Positions 1-6,212 of a stretch of 6,212 nucleotides of DNA are shown piece after piece; within the stretch, counting starts at the first letter, position 1; every line of letters begins with the position of its first letter. Where the stretch lies: IMG/VR virus record IMGVR_UViG_2778261674_000013; one strand, written 5' to 3'. Both the position numbers and the translations under genes were made by a program. This stretch comes from a virus. Taxonomy: Duplodnaviria > Heunggongvirae > Uroviricota > Caudoviricetes. The notes under the pieces were generated by a model. That model was not told where the DNA came from. It saw nothing but the letters and a program-made list of their open reading frames with translations, and did not search any database.

Positions 1-3
1 GTG

Positions 4-24
4 GGATATTCTGAAAGAATATCC
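4..24. repeat. Perfect 9-bp inverted repeat GGATATTCT-gaa-AGAATATCC at the window edge
   Basis: Seen directly: 4-12 is the reverse complement of 16-24, with a 3-nt spacer. Function unknown (hairpin or dimeric binding site). Confidence 0.3.
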
Positions 25-252
25 ATAATGTGGAGAGAATCTATTGAAGTGCATGGTGCCGGGTGCCTCCCGGTGAATTCAGTACCAGCACCTGAATCCG
101 CGATTATCCCATATACCTACTCGCTGATTGCCCCTCCGCACAGGGGGATTCACCATGCCAGTTTCTTTTAACAAACTCCCCGCAAACCAGAGAACAGTCA
201 ACCGCCTGAATTGTGAAGTATTTAAAAATTTCTCCCGCTAACTGATACCCGG

Positions 253-339
253 CTAACAGTCTGGCGTTTTCTTTTTCAGCAACGGGAAAGCAACAACCAC
301 CACACCCGCCACCAGCACACCGTCAGCCAGCACTGACAT
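253..339 (-). CDS. Possible small hydrophobic peptide (28 aa, MSVLADGVLVAGVVVVAFPLLKKKTPDC)
   Basis: ATG at 339-337, stop at 255-253. Hydrophobic core followed by a KKK cluster, like a single-pass membrane peptide. No convincing Shine-Dalgarno; could be a chance ORF. Confidence 0.12.
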   Translation of the reverse strand: MSVLADGVLVAGVVVVAFPLLKKKTPDC

Positions 340-419
340 TATCCGGCTGCTGCAATGCCATTCACAAAAACAGTAAGCAATCACTTTTTACCGTAACAGG
401 TGATAATCCAGATATGTAT

Positions 420-773
420 CTACCCCAGATGAGTAATCCGAAGTTCATCCATACCACAGGTCCTGGCTATTCTGTTGTACTCCTGAACAAGAGCAAATAA
501 TTCTGAATTAGCAACCATGAACTCATCGCAAACCCTCTGTATAGCATCACTATTCAGAATAATAACGTCTCTTCCCGAAAGACGATCAGGAGTACAGAAC
601 AAAACTGTCAAACGGCTGAAGGCCTTTGCTCGTGCTGCATTGACTATATCAATACGCTGCCTAAGGATGAAACACCCCGACGCCTCATCAATATTCACTC
701 TACCCACACCATATGAATGATAAATATTTAATGCTGAAAAAACTATTAGACCGTATAACAAACACTCAATCAA
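420..773 (-). CDS. Hypothetical protein (up to 117 aa) in the cargo slot downstream of the phage tRNAs
   Basis: Longest ORF in this interval, same orientation as the late operon. The upstream-most start is TTG with no obvious RBS, and the first in-frame ATG is at residue 86, so the true start is uncertain. No recognisable motif. Confidence 0.3.
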   Translation of the reverse strand: MIECLLYGLIVFSALNIYHSYGVGRVNIDEASGCFILRQRIDIVNAARAKAFSRLTVLFCTPDRLSGRDVIILNSDAIQRVCDEFMVANSELFALVQEYNRIARTCGMDELRITHLG

Positions 774-883
774 TACTTAACAGAACTTTTATTTTTGACA
801 AACATATTATGTTTTCAACAATATCCTGAGCCAGGTATATTCCAGTATAAGGCTCTGCCGGAAGGAATCTGGAAGAATGAATA

Positions 884-960
884 TGGCGCGCTGTACTGGA
901 TTCGAACCAGTGACCGATTGCTTAGAAGGCAATTGCTCTGTCCGGCTGAGCTAACAACGC
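884..960 (-). tRNA. tRNA-Arg (anticodon UCU), phage-borne rare-codon tRNA
   Basis: Reverse complement folds as a 77-nt cloverleaf: acceptor GCGTTGT/ACAGCGC, D-stem GCTC/GAGC, anticodon stem ATTGC/GCAAT, loop CTTCTAA (U33, anticodon TCT, A37), T-arm ACTGG-TTCGAAT-CCAGT, discriminator G, encoded CCA. Resembles the argN/argO class of Stx-phage tRNAs. Confidence 0.85.
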
Positions 961-994
961 TGAATACCGATAATGGACCGCCATCGGGGACCCG

Positions 995-1003
995 CCCCCC
1001 CCC
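995..1003. repeat. C9 homopolymer (G9 on the transcribed minus strand) between the two tRNA genes
   Basis: Seen directly: nine consecutive C within gacccgCCCCCCCCCgcacc. Confidence 0.9.
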
Positions 1004-1064
1004 GCACCAACAACCCTGTTATCGTGTCGTCTGCTCTTCCTGATAAGCTCATGGCGGTTTGTGA

Positions 1065-1140
1065 TGGTGGCCCTTGCTGGATTTGAACCAGCGACCTGGC
1101 GATTATGAGTCGCTCGCTCTCACCACTGAGCTAAAGGACC
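1065..1140 (-). tRNA. tRNA-Ile2 (anticodon CAU, lysidine type; formally could be read as Met)
   Basis: Reverse complement GGTCCTTTAGCTCAGTGGTGAGAGCGAGCGACTCATAATCGCCAGGTCGCTGGTTCAAATCCAGCAAGGGCCACCA is a 76-nt cloverleaf with anticodon loop CTCATAA. From memory it is very close to E. coli ileX (tRNA-Ile2) and to the ileZ class of Stx-phage tRNAs. One A-C mismatch closes the anticodon stem. Confidence 0.8.
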
Positions 1141-1176
1141 GGGAGCAGAATAATAACGGTCCGTAATTAATTCCGC

Positions 1177-1203
1177 AATAAAAAACCCGCTCGGTGGCGG
1201 GTT
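1177..1203 (-). terminator. Rho-independent terminator, tR'-like (ends the short late leader transcript)
   Basis: Minus strand reads AACCCGC-CACCGA-GCGGGTT followed by TTTTTTATT. GC-rich stem plus U-tract, about 40 nt downstream of the putative late promoter. Confidence 0.6.
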
Positions 1204-1250
1204 GTAGAAACTCTTCTAACGTCAGGCATAAAACGCCCATCGTTATGACG

Positions 1251-1278
1251 AATTTACCACAGATTCCGGAAAAATCAA
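1251..1278 (-). promoter_or_regulatory. Putative Q-dependent late promoter (pR'-like) with extended -10
   Basis: Minus strand: -35 TTGATT (1278-1273), 16-nt spacer ending in TGG, -10 TAAATT (1256-1251). It lies immediately after the Q stop codon and before the terminator, matching the lambda Q-pR'-tR' layout. Confidence 0.5.
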
Positions 1279-1283
1279 CCTTG

Positions 1284-2105
1284 TTACCTAGTTACCTTTT
1301 TTAACTGCCGCTCAGCCCATGCTTCTTCAATATCAAACCGGGTCACCAGCGCATCATAGAATTTCTTAACTGTTTTTTCCCATGACGCGCGTGTTATCTG
1401 GTTTGTCACCTCGCATATAGCATTAAATGCCTCCGTTGATGGTAGTCTTTCATAGCCCCGACCACCACAACGCTGGCAGTCTCTGATAACAGGCATACCA
1501 CGTTTTACCGACTCTTCACGGTGAATGGCGACACCACGCCCACGGCAATCCTTACAGGCGGTGGAAACCTCACCCTTTCCGCCACACTCCGGACAGGCAA
1601 CTTTTACCACCTCCCTGACTTTTTTCCATTCTTCCCAGTAAGACGGATACACACCTTTCGTACACTTTGCCCATACCGGCGGCTTACCATCCGGATACTG
1701 GACCTTGTTTGTAAAAACTACGCTTTCAATAAATTTTTCCCCATAGCAACAAGGGCACTGCTTTTTACTCGCTGCGCTGCGGGCATAATCCTCAAAAGCG
1801 TACGAAGCCATAATGCGCATCACTAACGGTTTTATTTCTGCCGGAAGTTTTCTCAACGCCGCCACACGATCGCACCGACTGAGTGCATAATCTGCCAGTA
1901 ATTCTGTTGCCCGCGCCCTGTCATTCATACTGATGCCCATTTTCCCCAGGAACGCAGAAAACCCCATCTCAGCTCGATTCTGTGTCATGCCCTGCGCGGC
2001 CATCACATCAGTGATACTCAGCGCATCTTTTGACGTTGAGGCCGATGCATCGATCAGGCAAGGGGATTTTGGGGAGTAGTATTTCGGTAAATCTTCCAGT
2101 TTCAT
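1284..2105 (-). CDS. Late-gene antitermination protein Q-like (273 aa), zinc-ribbon rich
   Basis: ATG start overlaps the RusA stop (ATGA). Several Cys pairs (CPCC, CPECGG, CKDCRG, CQRCGG). N-terminus MKLEDLPKYYSPKSP and overall layout match what I recall of the Qin-type Q protein (QuuQ/YdfT family). Synteny rusA-Q-pR'-tR' supports the call. Confidence 0.7.
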   Translation of the reverse strand: MKLEDLPKYYSPKSPCLIDASASTSKDALSITDVMAAQGMTQNRAEMGFSAFLGKMGISMNDRARATELLADYALSRCDRVAALRKLPAEIKPLVMRIMASYAFEDYARSAASKKQCPCCYGEKFIESVVFTNKVQYPDGKPPVWAKCTKGVYPSYWEEWKKVREVVKVACPECGGKGEVSTACKDCRGRGVAIHREESVKRGMPVIRDCQRCGGRGYERLPSTEAFNAICEVTNQITRASWEKTVKKFYDALVTRFDIEEAWAERQLKKVTR

Positions 2106-2476
2106 TTTTTGACCTGCTCTTCATGCATTATGGGGTAAATCTTCACCCCCATACGTCCACCAGATACTGGCTGACCACGAACGATATTGATTTCATCAAA
2201 CTGCTCATCGTCCATTAACACTCCCGCATGCGTCAGCGCATCCAGCGGTGCTTTCAGGATATTGTCCAGGTCGCGACGACGCTTATCCGGTGGCTCTGCA
2301 ATCACCTTTATCGCCAGCCTTCCGGACAGGCTTAATTTCAGCCGCTGCTGGCGAACAATAAGCGCCACAGCCCGGCGATAACGCTTTCCCTCCTCCGAGA
2401 TAAAATATGTGCTGCCACGGCGTCGCCAGTAAGTGTTCACCGTCGGCGGGTAAGGTAAAACCAAATCTATGAGCAT
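2102..2476 (-). CDS. rusA: Holliday-junction resolvase RusA (crossover junction endodeoxyribonuclease), 124 aa
   Basis: Motifs LPYPPTVNTYWRRR and PDKRRRDLDNILKAPLDALTHAGVLMDDEQ match the RusA family. RBS AGAGGTGA precedes the ATG at 2476-2474. Confidence 0.85.
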   Translation of the reverse strand: MLIDLVLPYPPTVNTYWRRRGSTYFISEEGKRYRRAVALIVRQQRLKLSLSGRLAIKVIAEPPDKRRRDLDNILKAPLDALTHAGVLMDDEQFDEINIVRGQPVSGGRMGVKIYPIMHEEQVKK

Positions 2477-2488
2477 CAGTCACCTCTT

Positions 2489-3538
2489 TTACCCAAGCAC
2501 GCCAGTTGCAAAGGCGTGATCAAGAAAACGAAAGATTAAATCAACCTGAGAACCATGCTTTTCTTCGAACGCCAGAGGATCCGCATGAAGCTCGTTGTGA
2601 TGCTCCCGACACAGCGGTAGCGTGAAAATATCGTGAGATTTTGTCCCCATTCCGCCCTGACCATGACCAATCAGGTGATGGGGATCGTCGGCTGGCTTAC
2701 CACAACACGCACACGGCTGTGTCTTCACCCAGCGTGTGTATTTCTCGTTAACCCAGCGGCGACGTTTAGGTCGTTTCATGAAAGATTCCGGAGACTCAGG
2801 ATCAACGGCAATGCTGACCACCGTCTTTTCCTGTGGTGGGTTCTGTTGCTGGTGGGCGTGAGGCAGCGGCGCAAGATTTTTTGTGCGCTGTTTCAGTATG
2901 CTGGTGGCGGTCTGCTCTCCCGGTACGATGTCGCTTTCACGGTACATTGAGCGGATTTTTTCCGCACGCAACCCCAGCGAACGACGTAATACCGCTTCCG
3001 GTAGCGCGTCCGCCACCTGATTGCGGACCGCCCACCAGGATAATTCAGCCAGCGATAATTCCCGCTCCTGTGTGCCATTCATTGCGTGACGAATGACGTC
3101 AATCATCCATGCTGACAAGTTTTGGTGAGCAAGTTGCTCAAGTGATTCGGAGGTCTGGTCACGCAACTGGTTGTCGCAGTGCCAGCACAACACCATTGCG
3201 CCGGTACCATAACGGTGAATGACGGTTTCACTATGGTGATAATCGCCGTGTGGCCACTGGCAGGATTTAACATGGCGCAGTAACCAGTCAGACAATGCGC
3301 CAGCGCCACCAGCAGCACGAATCACTCGTTCGTCGCTGAAAAATGGCAGTAATGATTTATCCTCCGCCAGCGGCTGGCGAACGGCAGGAACGACCCCGGA
3401 CGGCAGATTACGCATGCTTTTCGGTTCCGGCTCCACCAGTACCCGGGTATTGTGGAATACCGGCATGGATTCACGGCCCGGCTTAACGATCACCAGCCCG
3501 AGTTCCGGTACCAGAACAGGTCGAAGTAATACCCGCAC
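2489..3538 (-). CDS. DUF968-family protein with C-terminal HNH-like Cys/His motif (YdfU-like), 349 aa
   Basis: C-terminus CACCGKPADDPHHLIGHGQGGMGTKSHDIFTLPLCREHHNELHA is typical of prophage DUF968 proteins. GTG start at 3538-3536 is preceded by GGAGGT at ideal spacing and sits one base after the upstream ORF's stop. Confidence 0.75.
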   Translation of the reverse strand: MRVLLRPVLVPELGLVIVKPGRESMPVFHNTRVLVEPEPKSMRNLPSGVVPAVRQPLAEDKSLLPFFSDERVIRAAGGAGALSDWLLRHVKSCQWPHGDYHHSETVIHRYGTGAMVLCWHCDNQLRDQTSESLEQLAHQNLSAWMIDVIRHAMNGTQERELSLAELSWWAVRNQVADALPEAVLRRSLGLRAEKIRSMYRESDIVPGEQTATSILKQRTKNLAPLPHAHQQQNPPQEKTVVSIAVDPESPESFMKRPKRRRWVNEKYTRWVKTQPCACCGKPADDPHHLIGHGQGGMGTKSHDIFTLPLCREHHNELHADPLAFEEKHGSQVDLIFRFLDHAFATGVLG

Positions 3539-3539
3539 G

Positions 3540-3818
3540 TTACCTCCAGATGCGTTGCTGGAATGTGCGGGACGGACGCGGTGGGCGTTCGGAGTAAGGA
3601 AGCCTGACGGAGATTATCCAGTGACGGTAGTCGAGGCTAAGGGCTTTTTTAACCTCGTATCCGCGCCTGCGGTAACACTGAATTATCCATTCAGCCTGCT
3701 CTTCAGTGCATGGTGGATGCTGGAACCAGTCCGATTTGAATGCATGAAAACGCCGTCCGCACCTACTGGCAAAGACGGCAGAATCATCAGAATTATGTAA
3801 TTTGGTATCGTGCGCCAT
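3540..3818 (-). CDS. Hypothetical phage protein (92 aa from the internal ATG; the ORF extends to 3929 for 129 aa)
   Basis: Open frame ends 1 nt before the DUF968 start. Neither candidate start has a strong RBS (GAGA before 3818). The N-terminal extension is W/Y/F-rich and may not be coding. Occupies the position Rem has in Qin; sequence not recognised. Confidence 0.4.
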   Translation of the reverse strand: MAHDTKLHNSDDSAVFASRCGRRFHAFKSDWFQHPPCTEEQAEWIIQCYRRRGYEVKKALSLDYRHWIISVRLPYSERPPRPSRTFQQRIWR

Positions 3819-4083
3819 CGGTTGTCTCTGCTGGCGCAGCAGGTGCCAGTTGTTCAGGCTGGCGTATAAAGTATAAATAAACTGGTTCCAGTGTAAAGCC
3901 CCTACATTAATGGAATAAAAGTCAAACAACAGATTGCTGGGATAAACACAACGCTTATTATTAAAAGCGATTAGATAAATTAAATTTTAATGTTATGCAA
4001 TTTTACCAGAACACCATAACATCTCGTTTGAAACCACCGAAACAACAACCATATCAATATTGATTATGTTAAAGTGAGTAAAT

Positions 4084-4170
4084 ATGGAAAACAACAAATC
4101 TGCACATTACGCTCCTTTTTTATCTGTGATACTTTTTGTTTTATGCTGTGTGTGGGCATTATTTTTATAA
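4084..4170 (+). CDS. Possible small hydrophobic peptide (28 aa, MENNKSAHYAPFLSVILFVLCCVWALFL), convergent with hok
   Basis: ATG with a weak GTGAG upstream. Single hydrophobic stretch. No homology known to me; may be a chance ORF in AT-rich spacer. Confidence 0.15.
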   Translation: MENNKSAHYAPFLSVILFVLCCVWALFL

Positions 4171-4179
4171 AAATATTTA

Positions 4180-4208
4180 CAGATAAAATAAACCCGCCGA
4201 AGCGGGTT
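4180..4208 (-). terminator. Rho-independent terminator downstream of hok (UUCG tetraloop hairpin)
   Basis: Minus strand reads AACCCGC-TTCG-GCGGGTT followed by TATTTTATCT. The stem is the same as in the tR'-like terminator. Confidence 0.6.
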
Positions 4209-4247
4209 AAGCGCGGGTGCGTTGAGGATGCCTGACACATCAGAGGC

Positions 4248-4269
4248 GGCGAGGGATTTCTCCCTCGCC
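4248..4269 (-). other. Perfect 9-bp stem / 4-nt loop hairpin immediately 3' of the hok stop codon (possible mRNA 3' fold-back or processing element)
   Basis: Seen directly: GGCGAGGGA-tttc-TCCCTCGCC. No U-tract follows on either strand. Confidence 0.4.
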
Positions 4270-4276
4270 AAGTCTC

Positions 4277-4432
4277 TTACTCCTCAGGTTCGTAGACTGT
4301 GAAGACAGCGACCTCCATCTGGCCGGTTCGGATTCGTACCTCGCAGAGGTCTTTCCTCGTTACCAGTGCCGTCACTATGACGGTTAAACAGATGACGATC
4401 AGGGCGATTAACATCGCCTTTTGCTGCTTCAT
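4277..4432 (-). CDS. hokD: Hok/Gef-family type I membrane toxin (51 aa), HokD/RelF-like
   Basis: Protein MKQQKAMLIALIVICLTVIVTALVTRKDLCEVRIRTGQMEVAVFTVYEPEE is near-identical to E. coli HokD (RelF) as I recall it. Strong RBS AAGGAGAA sits 7 nt before the ATG. The ORF also extends in frame to an ATG at 4489. Confidence 0.85.
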   Translation of the reverse strand: MKQQKAMLIALIVICLTVIVTALVTRKDLCEVRIRTGQMEVAVFTVYEPEE

Positions 4433-4939
4433 AGCCTGCTTCTCCTTGCCTTTCGGCACGTAAGAGGCTAACCTACATGTGCAAAGCATGAAATTGGCCT
4501 CAGATTAATGTTAAGCGTCTTGCCGGACGCGTAATGTTAACTGGGGCTTTTCTCTATCTGCCTTTGGTGTTCATGCCTGAGACAGATAGCCTCAAGCACC
4601 CGCAGCCATTGTACTTAACTCCCGTTACCTCGCCAATATAAAATCAATCAGAAAGGCGATCCATAAGGACAATAGCAAGACAATAAATTGCCATTACCCG
4701 CAATAGCCAGCGCACATTTGAGGACCAGCACGACAACTTTCTGTATCGGACGTACACCAGTCCTGATAAATACAAGGCGGTCTCATCAGTGATGAGATGC
4801 AACTATTGAGTACAGTTTCTCTGATTTTTCTGTAAAACATGGAACACAACAACTAAATATAACTAGCACTTCTTAAGATGTACAAATTCAGAGTTAAGAT
4901 AACGTAAGCAGTTTTCTCAAAACTAAGTGTAAATTTTTA

Positions 4940-5056
4940 ATGAAGAGCAGTGCTATGCTCCTGATCATAAATTCATTGTTTGGAACTGGAGGAATATTTA
5001 GGTTGCTGGAGTGGTTGGTTGAATTTAAATCAACTAAGACAAAAACCAACAATTAA
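4940..5056 (+). CDS. Possible small protein (38 aa, MKSSAMLLIINSLFGTGGIFRLLEWLVEFKSTKTKTNN) in AT-rich spacer
   Basis: Hydrophobic N-terminal half and lysine-rich tail, like a small membrane peptide. No clear RBS; AT-rich DNA generates such ORFs by chance. Confidence 0.1.
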   Translation: MKSSAMLLIINSLFGTGGIFRLLEWLVEFKSTKTKTNN

Positions 5057-5246
5057 AGATATGTGGTATATCAGAAAACAACTATCCGTATATTACTACA
5101 GAATTAAATACTAGCAACAAAGCTGTCTTTATTGATTTTTTATTTGATATCGAAACAAATAAACATAAAATAACCAACTAATTAAAACAGAGACTCGACA
5201 ATGAGCCTCTATCTATTGTAACAGCACTTCCAAATTTATTTTAGTA

Positions 5247-5266
5247 AGATAATAGCATGGGGCATA
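5247..5266. terminator. GC-rich hairpin (7-bp stem ATGGGGC/GCCCCAT, 6-nt loop) just 3' of the 266-aa ORF; possible bidirectional terminator
   Basis: Seen directly. Plus strand follows with CTTTTAAA; minus strand follows with GCTATTATCT. It stands out as a GC-rich stem in AT-rich DNA. Confidence 0.45.
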
Positions 5267-5279
5267 CTAGCCCCATCTT

Positions 5280-6080
5280 TTAAACCGTTTCATCAAGGAA
5301 ATACTTAGACGAATCATCCTGTTTCGGTTGATATGTTTTTTTTGCAGAATTAAGAACTCTTCTTAGTTCTTTTCTTAACTCAGGTAAACGCTCCTGAAGA
5401 GGGTTAGAACACCATTGTGAAGGCAACCCTCTTATAATAGCTTCGGAACAAAGCGGTGAAATAAGTTTTTCCATTTGATAATAGAAAGTTTTTGCTCGAC
5501 TTACACGCATTGTGATCCTTTTTATTACATCTCTTTCAGACTCAATTCTAGCACTCAGATCTCTTAATCTACTCCATACCTTAGCATCAGCAATATATGT
5601 ATCATAAAGCATACACTCTATAAACGTGAAATTACTAATAAGTTCTTTTGCAATATACCCCCCCAGCCGAGAAGGAATGAAACTTGATGAAGCTGTTGGA
5701 TCTCCGTGATTTACGGTGAACAAAAACCTTTTATTGCATAAATCAACGAGAACTCGATGCGTGAAAGAGTCACCTATACCAATTAACCTTAACTTTTCAG
5801 TTATTACCGAACCATCGATTTGTCTGAATCCGGGATCGCTTGCATACGAAACGATAACATTAAGAATGTACAGCCTCAATAATTGCATTTGTGTCACAGC
5901 TAAATTCGAATCAAACGGGTTCGCAATAGTCGACGTTGACTCGCTATAAGTCAACTCAGTACCCAGTAATATAGCTCTAAATGCCTCATGACGTGGAAGA
6001 AGATACCTTCCTTGTTCTCTGAAAATTTGTACTGCTTTACCTGGACTCGTATACCCTCTTTCTAAGAACTCACGAGTCAT
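5280..6080 (-). CDS. Uncharacterised protein (266 aa) in the AT-rich cargo segment; candidate accessory, defence or toxin gene
   Basis: Long ATG-initiated ORF with no internal alternative start for about 60 codons. By eye it is clearly more AT-rich than the adjacent prophage core (not computed). Protein has no motif I can assign confidently: no HExxH, no canonical Walker A, no HNH. Confidence 0.6.
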   Translation of the reverse strand: MTREFLERGYTSPGKAVQIFREQGRYLLPRHEAFRAILLGTELTYSESTSTIANPFDSNLAVTQMQLLRLYILNVIVSYASDPGFRQIDGSVITEKLRLIGIGDSFTHRVLVDLCNKRFLFTVNHGDPTASSSFIPSRLGGYIAKELISNFTFIECMLYDTYIADAKVWSRLRDLSARIESERDVIKRITMRVSRAKTFYYQMEKLISPLCSEAIIRGLPSQWCSNPLQERLPELRKELRRVLNSAKKTYQPKQDDSSKYFLDETV

Positions 6081-6101
6081 ACGTAATGCTGATGAATCCC
6101 C

Positions 6102-6125
6102 TAATGATTTTTATCAAAATCATTA
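6102..6125. promoter_or_regulatory. Perfect 10-bp inverted repeat TAATGATTTT-tatc-AAAATCATTA, 22-45 bp upstream of the 266-aa ORF start; candidate operator
   Basis: Seen directly. The AT-rich palindrome is a poor terminator stem, so a dimeric regulator site is more plausible. Confidence 0.3.
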
Positions 6126-6139
6126 AGTTAAGGTAGATA

Positions 6140-6200
6140 CACATCTTGTCATATGATCAAATGGTTTCGCGAAAAATCAATAATCAGACAACAAGATGTG
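6140..6200. repeat. Nested palindrome: 10-bp arms CACATCTTGT / ACAAGATGTG around a central TTTCGCGAAA palindrome, same centre
   Basis: Seen directly: 6140-6149 is the reverse complement of 6191-6200, and the central 10-bp palindrome at 6165-6174 shares the centre near 6169/6170. Confidence 0.4.
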
Positions 6201-6212
6201 CGAACTCGATAT

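What the first reader, a model, noticed from the sequence alone, without database searches (positions are those of the whole stretch)
1..880. Cargo slot at the stx-equivalent position holds unidentifiable ORFs, no toxin genes
Between the tRNAs and the presumed lysis genes beyond the window start, Stx phages carry stxAB. Here the slot holds a 117-aa ORF (420-773) with no clear start codon, and a possible 28-aa hydrophobic peptide (253-339). Plus-strand frame 1 is also open from position 1 to a stop at 172-174, so a plus-strand gene might end inside the window. Nothing resembles the Stx A or B subunit. Genes here would be expressed from the late promoter on prophage induction.
Basis: partly seen in the sequence, partly recalled or inferred. 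Interest (0 to 1): 0.45.

Follow-up and report, generated by a model that had tools for sequence, protein, structure and literature searches.

The report
Toxin-free cargo slot of a lambdoid prophage
The stretch lies exactly where Shiga-toxin phages carry their toxin genes, but here it holds three catalogued, functionally uncharacterised prophage elements (a real 92-aa gene, a decayed small membrane-protein gene and a small RNA) found near-identically in about a fifth of complete E. coli genomes, so it is ordinary.

Summary
Window 1-883, read on the minus strand, is the cargo slot of a Qin/mEp460-like lambdoid prophage. It lies downstream of Q, a pR'/tR'-like promoter-terminator pair and two tRNAs, and upstream of two TolA-like genes and the lysis cassette.

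The positional claim holds. In a Stx2a phage, stx2AB lies between the tRNAs and an STnc100 sRNA element. In this window the same interval holds no toxin.

The contents are identifiable:
- The 117-aa ORF contains a genuine 92-aa gene (420-698, GTG start). Alleles diverged to dS about 1 keep 92 codons without indels, with dN/dS about 0.26. It belongs to phrog_2873, function unknown, and models as a helix / beta-hairpin / helix.
- The 28-aa peptide is the surviving 3' half of a decayed tciB (DUF3927) gene. tciA is deleted apart from about 25 nt.
- The plus-strand frame is only 62 codons long and is antisense to an STnc100-family sRNA (109 bits against a gathering score of 47). No plus-strand gene ends in the window.

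The same arrangement occurs at 95% identity or more in 1,183 of 5,426 complete E. coli genomes, and PGAP leaves the 92-aa gene unannotated in every copy I listed. Function is untested. This is an ordinary mosaic moron region of low interest.

The parts
1..187 (-). STnc100-family sRNA element (Rfam RF02076). The full element runs from window -3 to 187. The core helices are intact, but the usual GC-rich terminator with U-tract is replaced by an AT-rich hairpin (about 3-25) with no U-tract.
   Evidence: cmscan 108.9 bits in the window and 114 bits in L001, gathering score 47. RNAalifold on 8 copies: 39 pairs, 12 with compensatory changes; 6 of 8 copies have the terminator, while the window type and JLK-2012 lack it. 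Homology to the other copies ends near window 50.
1..171 (+). It is a 62-codon open stretch (window -17 to 171) antisense to STnc100 and very probably not a gene. PGAP marks 28-168 as a partial pseudogene.
   Evidence: Copies differ by gaps of 1, 4, 16 and 14 nt, so no frame is conserved. No Pfam match.
188..252 (-). Spacer between the DUF3927 stop and STnc100. Partly conserved with the sequence that follows stx2B in the Stx2a phage.
   Evidence: blastn: window 216-130 matches L012 4638-4553 at 79%; alignment.
253..384 (-). Decayed tciB (DUF3927) gene. The ORF is 43 aa from GTG 384 (the PGAP call) or 28 aa from ATG 339. Only the second hydrophobic segment of the canonical 50-54-aa protein survives.
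   Evidence: Pfam PF13064, 95.6 bits. phrog_1470 'TciB-like'. Alignment with JLK-2012 tciA-tciB: the original GTG start is now GTT, and deletions of 11, 4 and 5 nt remove the first hydrophobic segment. Canonical sequences.
385..419 (-). Intergenic remnant. About 25 nt are homologous to the 3' end of tciA (TerB-like); the rest of tciA is deleted.
   Evidence: Alignment A4. Intact layout of 92-aa gene, TerB-like gene, DUF3927 in L015/L016 and L006/L007.
420..698 (-). Genuine protein-coding gene of 92 aa with a GTG start, family phrog_2873 (function unknown). Predicted cytoplasmic helix / beta-hairpin / helix protein.
   Evidence: dN/dS 0.26-0.27 with codon-position differences of 19/19/39 against alleles in L003 and L004; 92 codons, no indels. 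Same start site in all alleles, with the upstream frame closed by stops in L003, L004, L019 and L020. Only this frame is open in all 9 alleles. phrog_2873 E = 5.6e-58. AF2 pLDDT 91.
699..883 (-). AT-rich (32% GC) upstream region of the 92-aa gene. It includes the non-conserved 25-codon 5' extension of the 117-aa ORF (699-773) and weak sigma-70-like sites (e.g. TTGAAA-16-AAAAAT at 818-791).
   Evidence: GC content. Promoter scan found 4 sites against 2.4 expected, which is not significant. Homology to the L004 type reaches window 775, and to the L003 type only about 729.
884..960 (-). tRNA-Arg (UCU); upstream boundary of the slot.
   Evidence: ARAGORN, Rfam tRNA, PGAP.
1065..1140 (-). tRNA with CAU anticodon (called Met by ARAGORN; annotated tRNA-Ile by PGAP).
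1184..1278 (-). Candidate late promoter (TTGATT at 1278-1273, 16 nt, TG-n-TAAATT at 1256-1251) and intrinsic terminator (stem 1203-1184 plus T-run) directly after Q. This matches a pR'/tR' arrangement and is inferred only.
   Evidence: Sequence; terminator scan.
1284..2105 (-). Q antiterminator gene (context).
   Evidence: Pfam Antiterm PF03589, E = 2.6e-55; PGAP.

Best explanation
Window 1-883 is the moron (cargo) slot of a Qin/mEp460-like lambdoid prophage and is read on the minus strand. It lies after Q, a pR'/tR'-like promoter-terminator pair and two tRNAs, and before two TolA-like genes and the holin-endolysin-spanin cassette. It is bracketed by the same landmarks that bracket stxAB in Stx2 phages (tRNA-Arg upstream, an STnc100 sRNA element downstream) but carries no toxin.

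Its content is a mosaic:
(1) An intact 92-aa gene (420-698, GTG start) of family phrog_2873.
(2) The wreck of a tciA-tciB (TerB-like / DUF3927) pair. tciA is deleted down to about 25 nt, and tciB has lost its start codon and first hydrophobic segment, leaving a 28-43-aa single-segment ORF (253-384).
(3) An STnc100-family sRNA element (1-187) that has lost its native terminator.
The plus-strand 'frame 1 ORF' is the antisense of that RNA.

The anatomy, family memberships, coding status and slot equivalence are shown.

The following steps are inferred. On induction, Q-modified polymerase starting at pR' reads through tR', the tRNAs and the slot into the lysis genes, so everything here is co-expressed late. 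The 92-aa gene may also have its own weak promoter in the AT-rich 699-883 region. The 92-aa product is a soluble antiparallel coiled-coil protein with a beta-hairpin tip that acts through protein-protein interaction. Because four diverged alleles sit directly downstream of a YdeO/GadX-like AraC-type regulator gene, its most likely role is as an accessory to that kind of regulator. I give that specific role only about 0.15-0.25 probability.
For: Context: Q, RusA, DUF968 and Hok by Pfam. PGAP annotation of a 99.6%-identical chromosome shows TolA-like x2, essD holin, lysozyme and the portal/terminase genes beyond the window start. Phage mEp460_ev081 is 99.3% identical over 1-1200.

Slot equivalence: in the Stx2a phage the order is tRNAs / stx2A / stx2B / STnc100 at 149.5 bits; PMC12370729 agrees. 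The window has STnc100 at 1-187.

92-aa gene: (dN/dS 0.26, no indels, conserved start, only one open frame across 9 alleles). phrog_2873. Most database clusters are full length (P0001, P0003, P0004 and P0006 hold 253, 175, 146 and 370 member sequences). Homologues of 91-95 aa in Citrobacter, Salmonella and plasmids. AF2 pLDDT 91.

tciAB decay. Intact layouts.

STnc100 structure and covariation.

AraC-type neighbour.

Prevalence: 1,183 of 5,426 genomes.
Against: No expression data were available, so the promoter and read-through steps are inference. The promoter scan is not above chance. The window allele has a weak Shine-Dalgarno (GTGGG instead of the AGGAG of the L003/L015 alleles), and PGAP does not call the gene in the listed copies, so translation of this particular allele is unproven. 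The window has no AraC-type gene, so the proposed partner role cannot operate in cis here. No significant fold or sequence match gives a function. PGAP and Pfam treat the 43-aa DUF3927 ORF as a family member, so calling it 'decayed' is a matter of degree and it may still be functional.
Confidence: 0.8

Rival explanations
1. The gene is the full 117-aa ORF (TTG 773). Its hydrophobic 25-residue N-terminus would act as a signal or membrane anchor, making the product a membrane or secreted cargo protein.
For: The frame is open to 773 in the window. Automatic gene callers produced 113-118-aa versions (P0001-P0007) and a 116-aa version of a 56%-identical allele (P0014). The extension is hydrophobic.
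Against: The upstream frame is closed after 5-10 codons in L003, L004, L019 and L020. Distant homologues start with ATG within a few codons of the GTG-698 position, with stops 1-3 codons upstream. PGAP's call for the L003 allele is 92 aa. Similarity to the L003-type allele stops about 30 nt upstream of the GTG. There is no Shine-Dalgarno before TTG 773.
Confidence: 0.07
2. 420-773 is non-coding or a dead pseudogene. The ORF is a chance open frame in AT-rich spacer, as the RefSeq annotation (nothing called) implies.
For: PGAP annotates nothing under this stretch in all 36 full-length copies listed. Weak Shine-Dalgarno and a GTG start. No Pfam or NCBIfam family.
Against: dN/dS 0.26 at dS about 1, a twofold third-position excess and no indels over 92 codons. 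It is the only frame open in all nine alleles down to 33% identity. PHROG family match at E = 5.6e-58. A confident AF2 model from only 12 sequences.
Confidence: 0.05
3. The 43-aa DUF3927 ORF is a functional, deliberately shortened single-pass membrane peptide and not a decaying remnant.
For: Pfam score of 95.6 bits against a cut-off of 25. PGAP names it (WP_000562553.1). The variant is retained in more than 1,000 genomes. The conserved C-terminal segment, including its Met, is intact.
Against: The original start codon is mutated, and three deletions totalling 20 nt destroy the first hydrophobic segment. Its usual translationally coupled partner tciA is gone. Neither candidate start has a good ribosome-binding site. 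Retention at 95-99% identity in recently spread prophages says little about selection.
Confidence: 0.3
4. A real plus-strand gene ends at 169-171, as the reader suggested and as PGAP's 'partial pseudogene' hints.
For: Open frame from 1 to 171. PGAP pseudogene at 28-168. Stop-free stretches of 39-60 codons occur antisense to all eight STnc100 copies examined.
Against: The frame is only 62 codons long in the extended locus. Copies differ by indels that are not multiples of three. The same bases score 109-172 bits as STnc100 on the other strand, with 12 compensatory pairs. No Pfam match.
Confidence: 0.03

Closest known systems
stx locus of Stx2-converting lambdoid phages (Q, tRNAs, stxAB, STnc100, nanS-p esterase, S-R-Rz)
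   Same: Same late-operon position and the same flanking landmarks: tRNA-Arg upstream, STnc100 downstream, same orientation, with Q upstream and lysis genes downstream.
   Different: No stxA or stxB similarity. The cargo is a 92-aa phrog_2873 gene plus a tciAB remnant. Two tRNAs instead of three. TolA-like genes replace the esterase gene. The STnc100 copy lacks its terminator.
tciA-tciB (TerB-like / DUF3927) moron pair, named in phage P1 and annotated in phage JLK-2012
   Same: Window 51-352 is 93% identical to the tciB-STnc100 segment of JLK-2012. Same slot between the tRNAs and STnc100.
   Different: tciA is deleted apart from about 25 nt, and tciB has lost its start and first hydrophobic segment. 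The functions implied by the name (tellurite or colicin resistance, inhibition of cell division) are annotation conjecture. I found no experimental paper.
STnc100 / PasD prophage sRNA family (Rfam RF02076; Zhu, Shabalina and Storz, bioRxiv 2026, doi 10.64898/2026.05.13.724894)
   Same: Strong covariance-model match, conserved long-range helix and hairpins, and a location in the late region of a lambdoid prophage near Q and the lysis genes.
   Different: The 3' terminator stem-loop and U-tract are replaced from about window 50 onward, so this copy may not yield a discrete sRNA. Targets and function of the family are unknown.
phrog_2873 (phage protein family of unknown function)
   Same: Full-length match, E = 5.6e-58.
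   Different: Nothing is known about function. In the phage genome collection only mEp460_ev081 carries it. It is mainly a prophage and plasmid gene.
ANR family (Aar, Cnr, Rnr): small anti-activators that accompany AraC/XylS regulators
   Same: Small (about 10 kDa), mostly helical, predicted to act by protein-protein contact. Encoded next to AraC-type regulators or near fimbrial and pilus operons on mobile elements.
   Different: The ANR signature (conserved W26 and W43, three helices, no beta; PMC4983702) is absent. The family has no conserved Trp and has a confident beta-hairpin. This is an analogy only.
Prefoldin beta subunit fold
   Same: Helix / beta-hairpin / helix architecture. It gives the best PDB matches (TM about 0.72, Foldseek prob 1.0).
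   Different: E = 0.03-0.2 is not significant, rmsd is about 8 A, identity is 8-16%, and there is no Pfam prefoldin match. The fold is simple enough to be convergent.

Membership tests
Shiga toxin (AB5) operon | A subunit with a RIP N-glycosidase domain and a B subunit with the SLT-beta fold encoded in the slot | tested here: not met
   tblastn of Stx2A and Stx2B from L012 against the window found only E>4 noise outside the slot. No such Pfam domains in any ORF scanned.
Stx-phage-type late cargo slot | Located between the tRNA cluster downstream of Q and an STnc100 element, in the same orientation as Q and the lysis genes | tested here: met
Rfam RF02076 STnc100 | Covariance-model score above the gathering threshold (47 bits) | tested here: met
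   108.9 bits in the window (cut at the 3' end by the window start) and 114 bits for the full element in L001.
Rfam RF02076 STnc100 | Conserved secondary structure supported by compensatory changes | tested here: met
   RNAalifold on 8 copies: 39 pairs, 12 with both-sides changes. The copies are related and few, so this is supportive and not independent proof.
Rfam RF02076 STnc100 | 3' GC-rich intrinsic terminator with U-tract (a discrete sRNA) | tested here: not met
   6 of 8 copies have it. The window-type copy has an AT-rich hairpin without a U-tract.
Rfam RF02076 STnc100 | Expressed, Hfq-associated transcript | not testable with these tools
   Needs a Northern blot, RNA-seq or RIL-seq in a strain carrying this allele.
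Pfam PF13064 DUF3927 / phrog_1470 TciB-like | HMM match above the curated cut-off | tested here: met
   95.6 bits against 25. phrog_1470 E = 7.8e-13.
Pfam PF13064 DUF3927 / phrog_1470 TciB-like | Canonical 50-54-aa architecture with two hydrophobic segments, translationally coupled to an upstream TerB-like tciA | tested here: not met
   The first segment and original start are lost, and tciA is deleted. Intact versions are in L006, L015 and L017.
phrog_2873 | Full-length profile match | tested here: met
   E = 5.6e-58, residues 1-92 on profile positions 17-108 of 108.
Protein-coding gene (92-aa core) | Purifying selection, a conserved frame and conserved start/stop across diverged alleles | tested here: met
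ANR (AraC negative regulators) | ANR signature with conserved A10, E14, A22, W26, A29, W43 and R47; three helices, no beta | tested here: not met
   No conserved Trp in 12 family members. Beta-hairpin at residues 39-46 with high confidence. Signature taken from PMC4983702.
ANR (AraC negative regulators) | Direct binding to and inhibition of an AraC-family partner | not testable with these tools
   Needs two-hybrid or pull-down experiments and reporter assays.
Prefoldin beta | Significant sequence or fold match to prefoldin subunits | tested here: inconclusive
   Top Foldseek hits have TM 0.70-0.72 but E = 0.03-0.2 and rmsd about 8 A. No Pfam match.
Lambdoid Q-dependent late operon | Q gene followed by a promoter and intrinsic terminator, then lysis genes on the same strand | tested here: met
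   Q by PF03589. Terminator at 1203-1184. Promoter-like TTGATT-16-TGnTAAATT (consensus match only). Lysis genes in L001. Function of the promoter and the qut site was not tested.

The most novel reading that the evidence does not exclude
The 92-aa phrog_2873 protein would define a new family of small coiled-coil partners (activator-modulating or anti-activator proteins) of prophage-borne YdeO/GadX-like AraC regulators. These regulators are of the Psr/PatE class that rewires acid resistance and type III secretion in pathogenic E. coli. The family would be analogous to, but unrelated in sequence to, the ANR family. Stand-alone copies like the one in this window would act in trans on chromosomal or other prophage AraC-type regulators. 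RefSeq does not annotate the gene in the copies I examined, from a set of more than 1,200 complete genomes that carry it.
Probability: 0.12. Interest if true: 0.55.

Novelty: already known. Interest (0 to 1): 0.2.

Why it matters
There are three practical points. First, the tRNA-to-STnc100 interval is a precisely bounded, exchangeable cargo slot in lambdoid prophages. It can hold stxAB, tciAB, or the 92-aa gene with or without an AraC-type regulator, which is useful for annotating and comparing Stx and non-Stx prophages. Second, a gene under clear purifying selection (92 aa, phrog_2873) is present in about 22% of complete E. coli genomes and was left unannotated by PGAP in every copy I looked at. 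That is a small, correctable annotation gap. Third, the recurring position of that gene directly after YdeO/GadX-like regulators gives a testable lead for its function. None of this changes current understanding of phage biology.

Tried and rejected
- Stx similarity: none.
- Pfam, NCBIfam, PADLOC and PDB-sequence searches of the 92-aa protein: nothing, apart from a sub-threshold RHIM match that I dismissed as noise.
- Foldseek against PDB and BFVD: only non-significant helical-hairpin matches (prefoldin beta, EmrA hairpin, TraM, DksA2, designed helical bundles). I judged these too generic to assign function. The afdb50 library was unavailable.
- ANR membership: rejected on signature.
- Identity of the AraC-type neighbour with PsrA, PsrB or PatE: not shown. 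The L004-type pair is in 80 mostly non-O157 STEC genomes at DNA level, and NCBIfam gives only sub-cut-off YdeO/GadX similarity.
- The terminator-like hairpin at 584-566 lies inside the 92-aa ORF with a poor T-tail. I treated it as chance.
- Promoter scan of 1-1400: not above the shuffled expectation.
- Literature searches for TciB and DUF3927 gave nothing functional. 'tciA' leads only to phage P1 annotation.
- I ran no further search on the 56-aa plus-strand translation, because the RNA evidence and the 62-codon limit already settle it.
Full report
OBSERVATION. The minus-strand ORF 420-773 (117 aa, TTG start) and the in-frame ATG at 339 (28-aa hydrophobic peptide ending at 253) are there. Plus-strand frame 1 is open from base 1, but its stop is at 169-171, not 172-174. 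Nothing in the window resembles Stx2A or Stx2B (tblastn gave only E>4 noise outside the slot). ORF length alone is not informative, because the window contains spurious ORFs of 101-128 aa overlapping real genes.

CONTEXT. Read on the minus strand, the window is the late-regulatory region of a lambdoid prophage. It contains hok with its sok RNA, a DUF968 gene, RusA and a 273-aa Q antiterminator (Pfam; sok). Next come a tRNA with a CAU anticodon (annotated Ile by PGAP) and tRNA-Arg(UCU). Directly after Q there is a promoter-like TTGATT-16-TGnTAAATT (1278-1251) and an intrinsic terminator (1203-1184), which is the pR'/tR' arrangement. This is a consensus match only. A chromosome that is 99.6% identical (L001) shows what lies beyond the window start: two TolA-C-terminal-domain genes, then essD holin, a YdfR-family gene, lysozyme, an unnamed ORF in the position usually held by the spanin gene, and the terminase and portal genes. 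Phage mEp460_ev081 is 99.3% identical over 1-1200.

THE SLOT IS STX-EQUIVALENT. Rfam finds an STnc100 element (RF02076) on the minus strand at 1-187, scoring 108.9 bits against a gathering score of 47. In L001 the complete element runs from window -3 to 187 and scores 114 bits. In Stx2a phage EH2201 the order is tRNAs (6015-6266), stx2A (4965-5924), stx2B (4684-4953), then STnc100 (4398-4609, 149.5 bits). This agrees with the report that STnc100 lies 75 nt downstream of stx2 (PMC12370729).

THE 117-aa ORF CONTAINS A REAL 92-aa GENE.
- Diverged copies exist at 71-76% DNA identity and 56-63% protein identity. PGAP annotates the L003 copy as a 92-aa protein.
- The window, L003 and L004 alleles all have 92 codons from a GTG at the same site, with no indels. 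dN/dS is 0.26-0.27 at dS of about 0.9-1.1. Codon-position differences are 19/19/39, 24/23/43 and 24/18/40.
Distant members (33-43% identity, 91-95 aa, in Citrobacter, Salmonella and plasmids) start with ATG within a few codons of the same point.
- Across nine alleles only this frame is free of stops.
The gene is therefore 420-698 with a GTG start. This explains 'no clear start codon'. The window allele has a weak Shine-Dalgarno, and PGAP leaves the stretch unannotated in all 36 full-length copies listed.

WHAT THE 92-aa PROTEIN IS. It matches phrog_2873, a family of unknown function, at E = 5.6e-58. Nothing matches in Pfam, NCBIfam, PADLOC or PDB sequences. The family is narrow: 19 representative clusters among 1.84 billion, and 32 clusters with a profile search, all from Enterobacteriaceae. 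The protein is acidic to neutral (pI 5.7) with no membrane segment. AlphaFold2 with a 12-sequence alignment gives pLDDT 91, with helix 3-35, a beta-hairpin at 39-46 and helix 50-81. The best PDB matches are prefoldin beta subunits (TM about 0.72), but E = 0.03 or higher, and neither the PDB nor the viral library gives a significant match.

Genomic contexts recur. In E. coli, Citrobacter and Salmonella prophages the gene sits in the late cargo region between Q and the holin. Four alleles lie directly after a YdeO/GadX-like AraC-type regulator gene, and the gene is often followed by a TerB-like gene and DUF3927. Distant members are on plasmids beside PapB-regulated fimbrial operons or a type IV pilus operon. 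This suggests, without showing it, a protein-protein accessory role linked to AraC-type regulation. It is not an ANR-family member: the ANR signature needs conserved Trp residues and an all-helical structure (PMC4983702), and this family has no conserved Trp and has a beta-hairpin.

THE 28-aa PEPTIDE IS A tciB REMNANT. The ORF 253-384 (43 aa) scores 95.6 bits on Pfam DUF3927 and matches phrog_1470 'TciB-like'. In phage JLK-2012 the slot holds tciA (TerB-like), tciB (54 aa) and then STnc100, and window 51-352 is 93% identical to that segment. A base-level alignment shows the following. About 25 nt after the 92-aa gene's stop are homologous to the 3' end of tciA. The tciB start GTG has become GTT. 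Deletions of 11, 4 and 5 nt remove the first hydrophobic segment. Homology resumes cleanly at the codons for SSRIM, where M is ATG 339. The window layout is therefore best read as an L015-like layout (92-aa gene, tciA, tciB) that has lost tciA and the 5' third of tciB. Whether the remaining 28-43-aa single-segment peptide is made or useful is open. The 'tci' names come from phage P1 annotation, and I found no experimental work.

THE PLUS-STRAND FRAME IS ANTISENSE TO AN sRNA. In L001 the frame is open for only 62 codons (window -17 to 171), entirely within the STnc100 footprint. Copies of the element differ by gaps that are not multiples of three. RNAalifold on eight copies predicts 39 pairs, 12 of them with compensatory changes. 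No plus-strand gene ends in the window, and PGAP's 'partial pseudogene' at 28-168 is most likely an artefact of ORFs called antisense to STnc100 elsewhere. One peculiarity is that six of eight copies end in a GC-rich terminator with a U-tract, whereas the window-type copy (and the JLK-2012 copy) does not. Homology to other copies stops near window 50, and an AT-rich hairpin without a U-tract follows. This copy may therefore not give a discrete sRNA. STnc100 is related to PasD, an Hfq-associated prophage sRNA of EPEC, and the function of both is unknown (doi 10.64898/2026.05.13.724894).

HOW IT MOST LIKELY WORKS. The anatomy, family assignments, coding status and slot equivalence are shown. The rest is inferred. 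After induction, Q-modified RNA polymerase from the pR'-like promoter reads through tR', the tRNAs, the 92-aa gene, the tciB remnant and STnc100 into the TolA-like and lysis genes. The 32%-GC region at 699-883 may add a lysogen-active promoter, but the consensus scan is not above chance. No strong intrinsic terminator interrupts the minus strand between 883 and 1.

NOVELTY AND SCORE. The full arrangement occurs at 95% identity or more in 1,183 of 5,426 complete E. coli genomes and in a deposited phage genome. Each component belongs to a catalogued family. It is an ordinary, partly decayed mosaic moron region, rated already known, with interest 0.2. The residual value is a clean definition of the exchangeable slot, an annotation gap for a selected 92-aa gene, and a testable lead linking that gene to prophage AraC-type regulators (probability about 0.12; interest if true about 0.55).

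Noticed in passing
window 6089-6212 (RNA-OUT at 6134-6203, minus strand): The right end of the window is an IS10 end (CTGATGAATCCCCTAATGATTTT...; Rfam RNA-OUT at 98.8 bits). It begins 9 nt from the ATG of ORF 5280-6080. That ORF matches only the C-terminal part (profile positions 579-832 of 833) of phrog_14719, so IS10 has probably truncated a longer gene.
   Followed up: partly
window 4277-4601 (minus strand): A hok/sok type I toxin-antitoxin locus. The Hok ORF is at 4277-4489 (Pfam HOK_GEF) and the sok antisense RNA at 4427-4601 (Rfam, 115.7 bits).
   Followed up: no
L004 3686-4665 and 6425-6637: A non-O157 STEC prophage carries five tandem STnc100 copies (119-142 bits each) plus a sixth copy (172 bits) downstream of a tolA-like gene. 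Such amplification of a prophage sRNA element is unusual.
   Followed up: no
L001 7912-8886 (just beyond the window start): Two adjacent prophage genes encode TolA C-terminal (domain III) homologues of 142 and 124 aa. A perfect TATAAT lies upstream of the first. They are possible decoys for Tol-dependent colicins or filamentous phages.
   Followed up: partly
window 420-698 and its copies in E. coli genomes: RefSeq/PGAP annotates nothing over the 92-aa gene in all 36 full-length window-type copies listed. In the 40 listed L004-type copies it annotates only the neighbouring HTH gene. It does call the 92-aa protein in the L003-type allele, which has a strong AGGAG Shine-Dalgarno.
   Followed up: partly
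window 3748-4189 and 4854-6212 compared with L001: The window is colinear with L001 over 1-3747 (98.6%) and 4190-4853 (92%) but differs in between and to the right. These are further mosaic junctions in the early-region side of the prophage.
   Followed up: no
window 3540-3929 (minus strand): This 129-aa ORF matches phrog_1212 only over residues 64-129. PGAP calls a 92-aa protein at the equivalent place in L001, so the long ORF probably over-extends the real gene, as with the 117-aa ORF.
   Followed up: no
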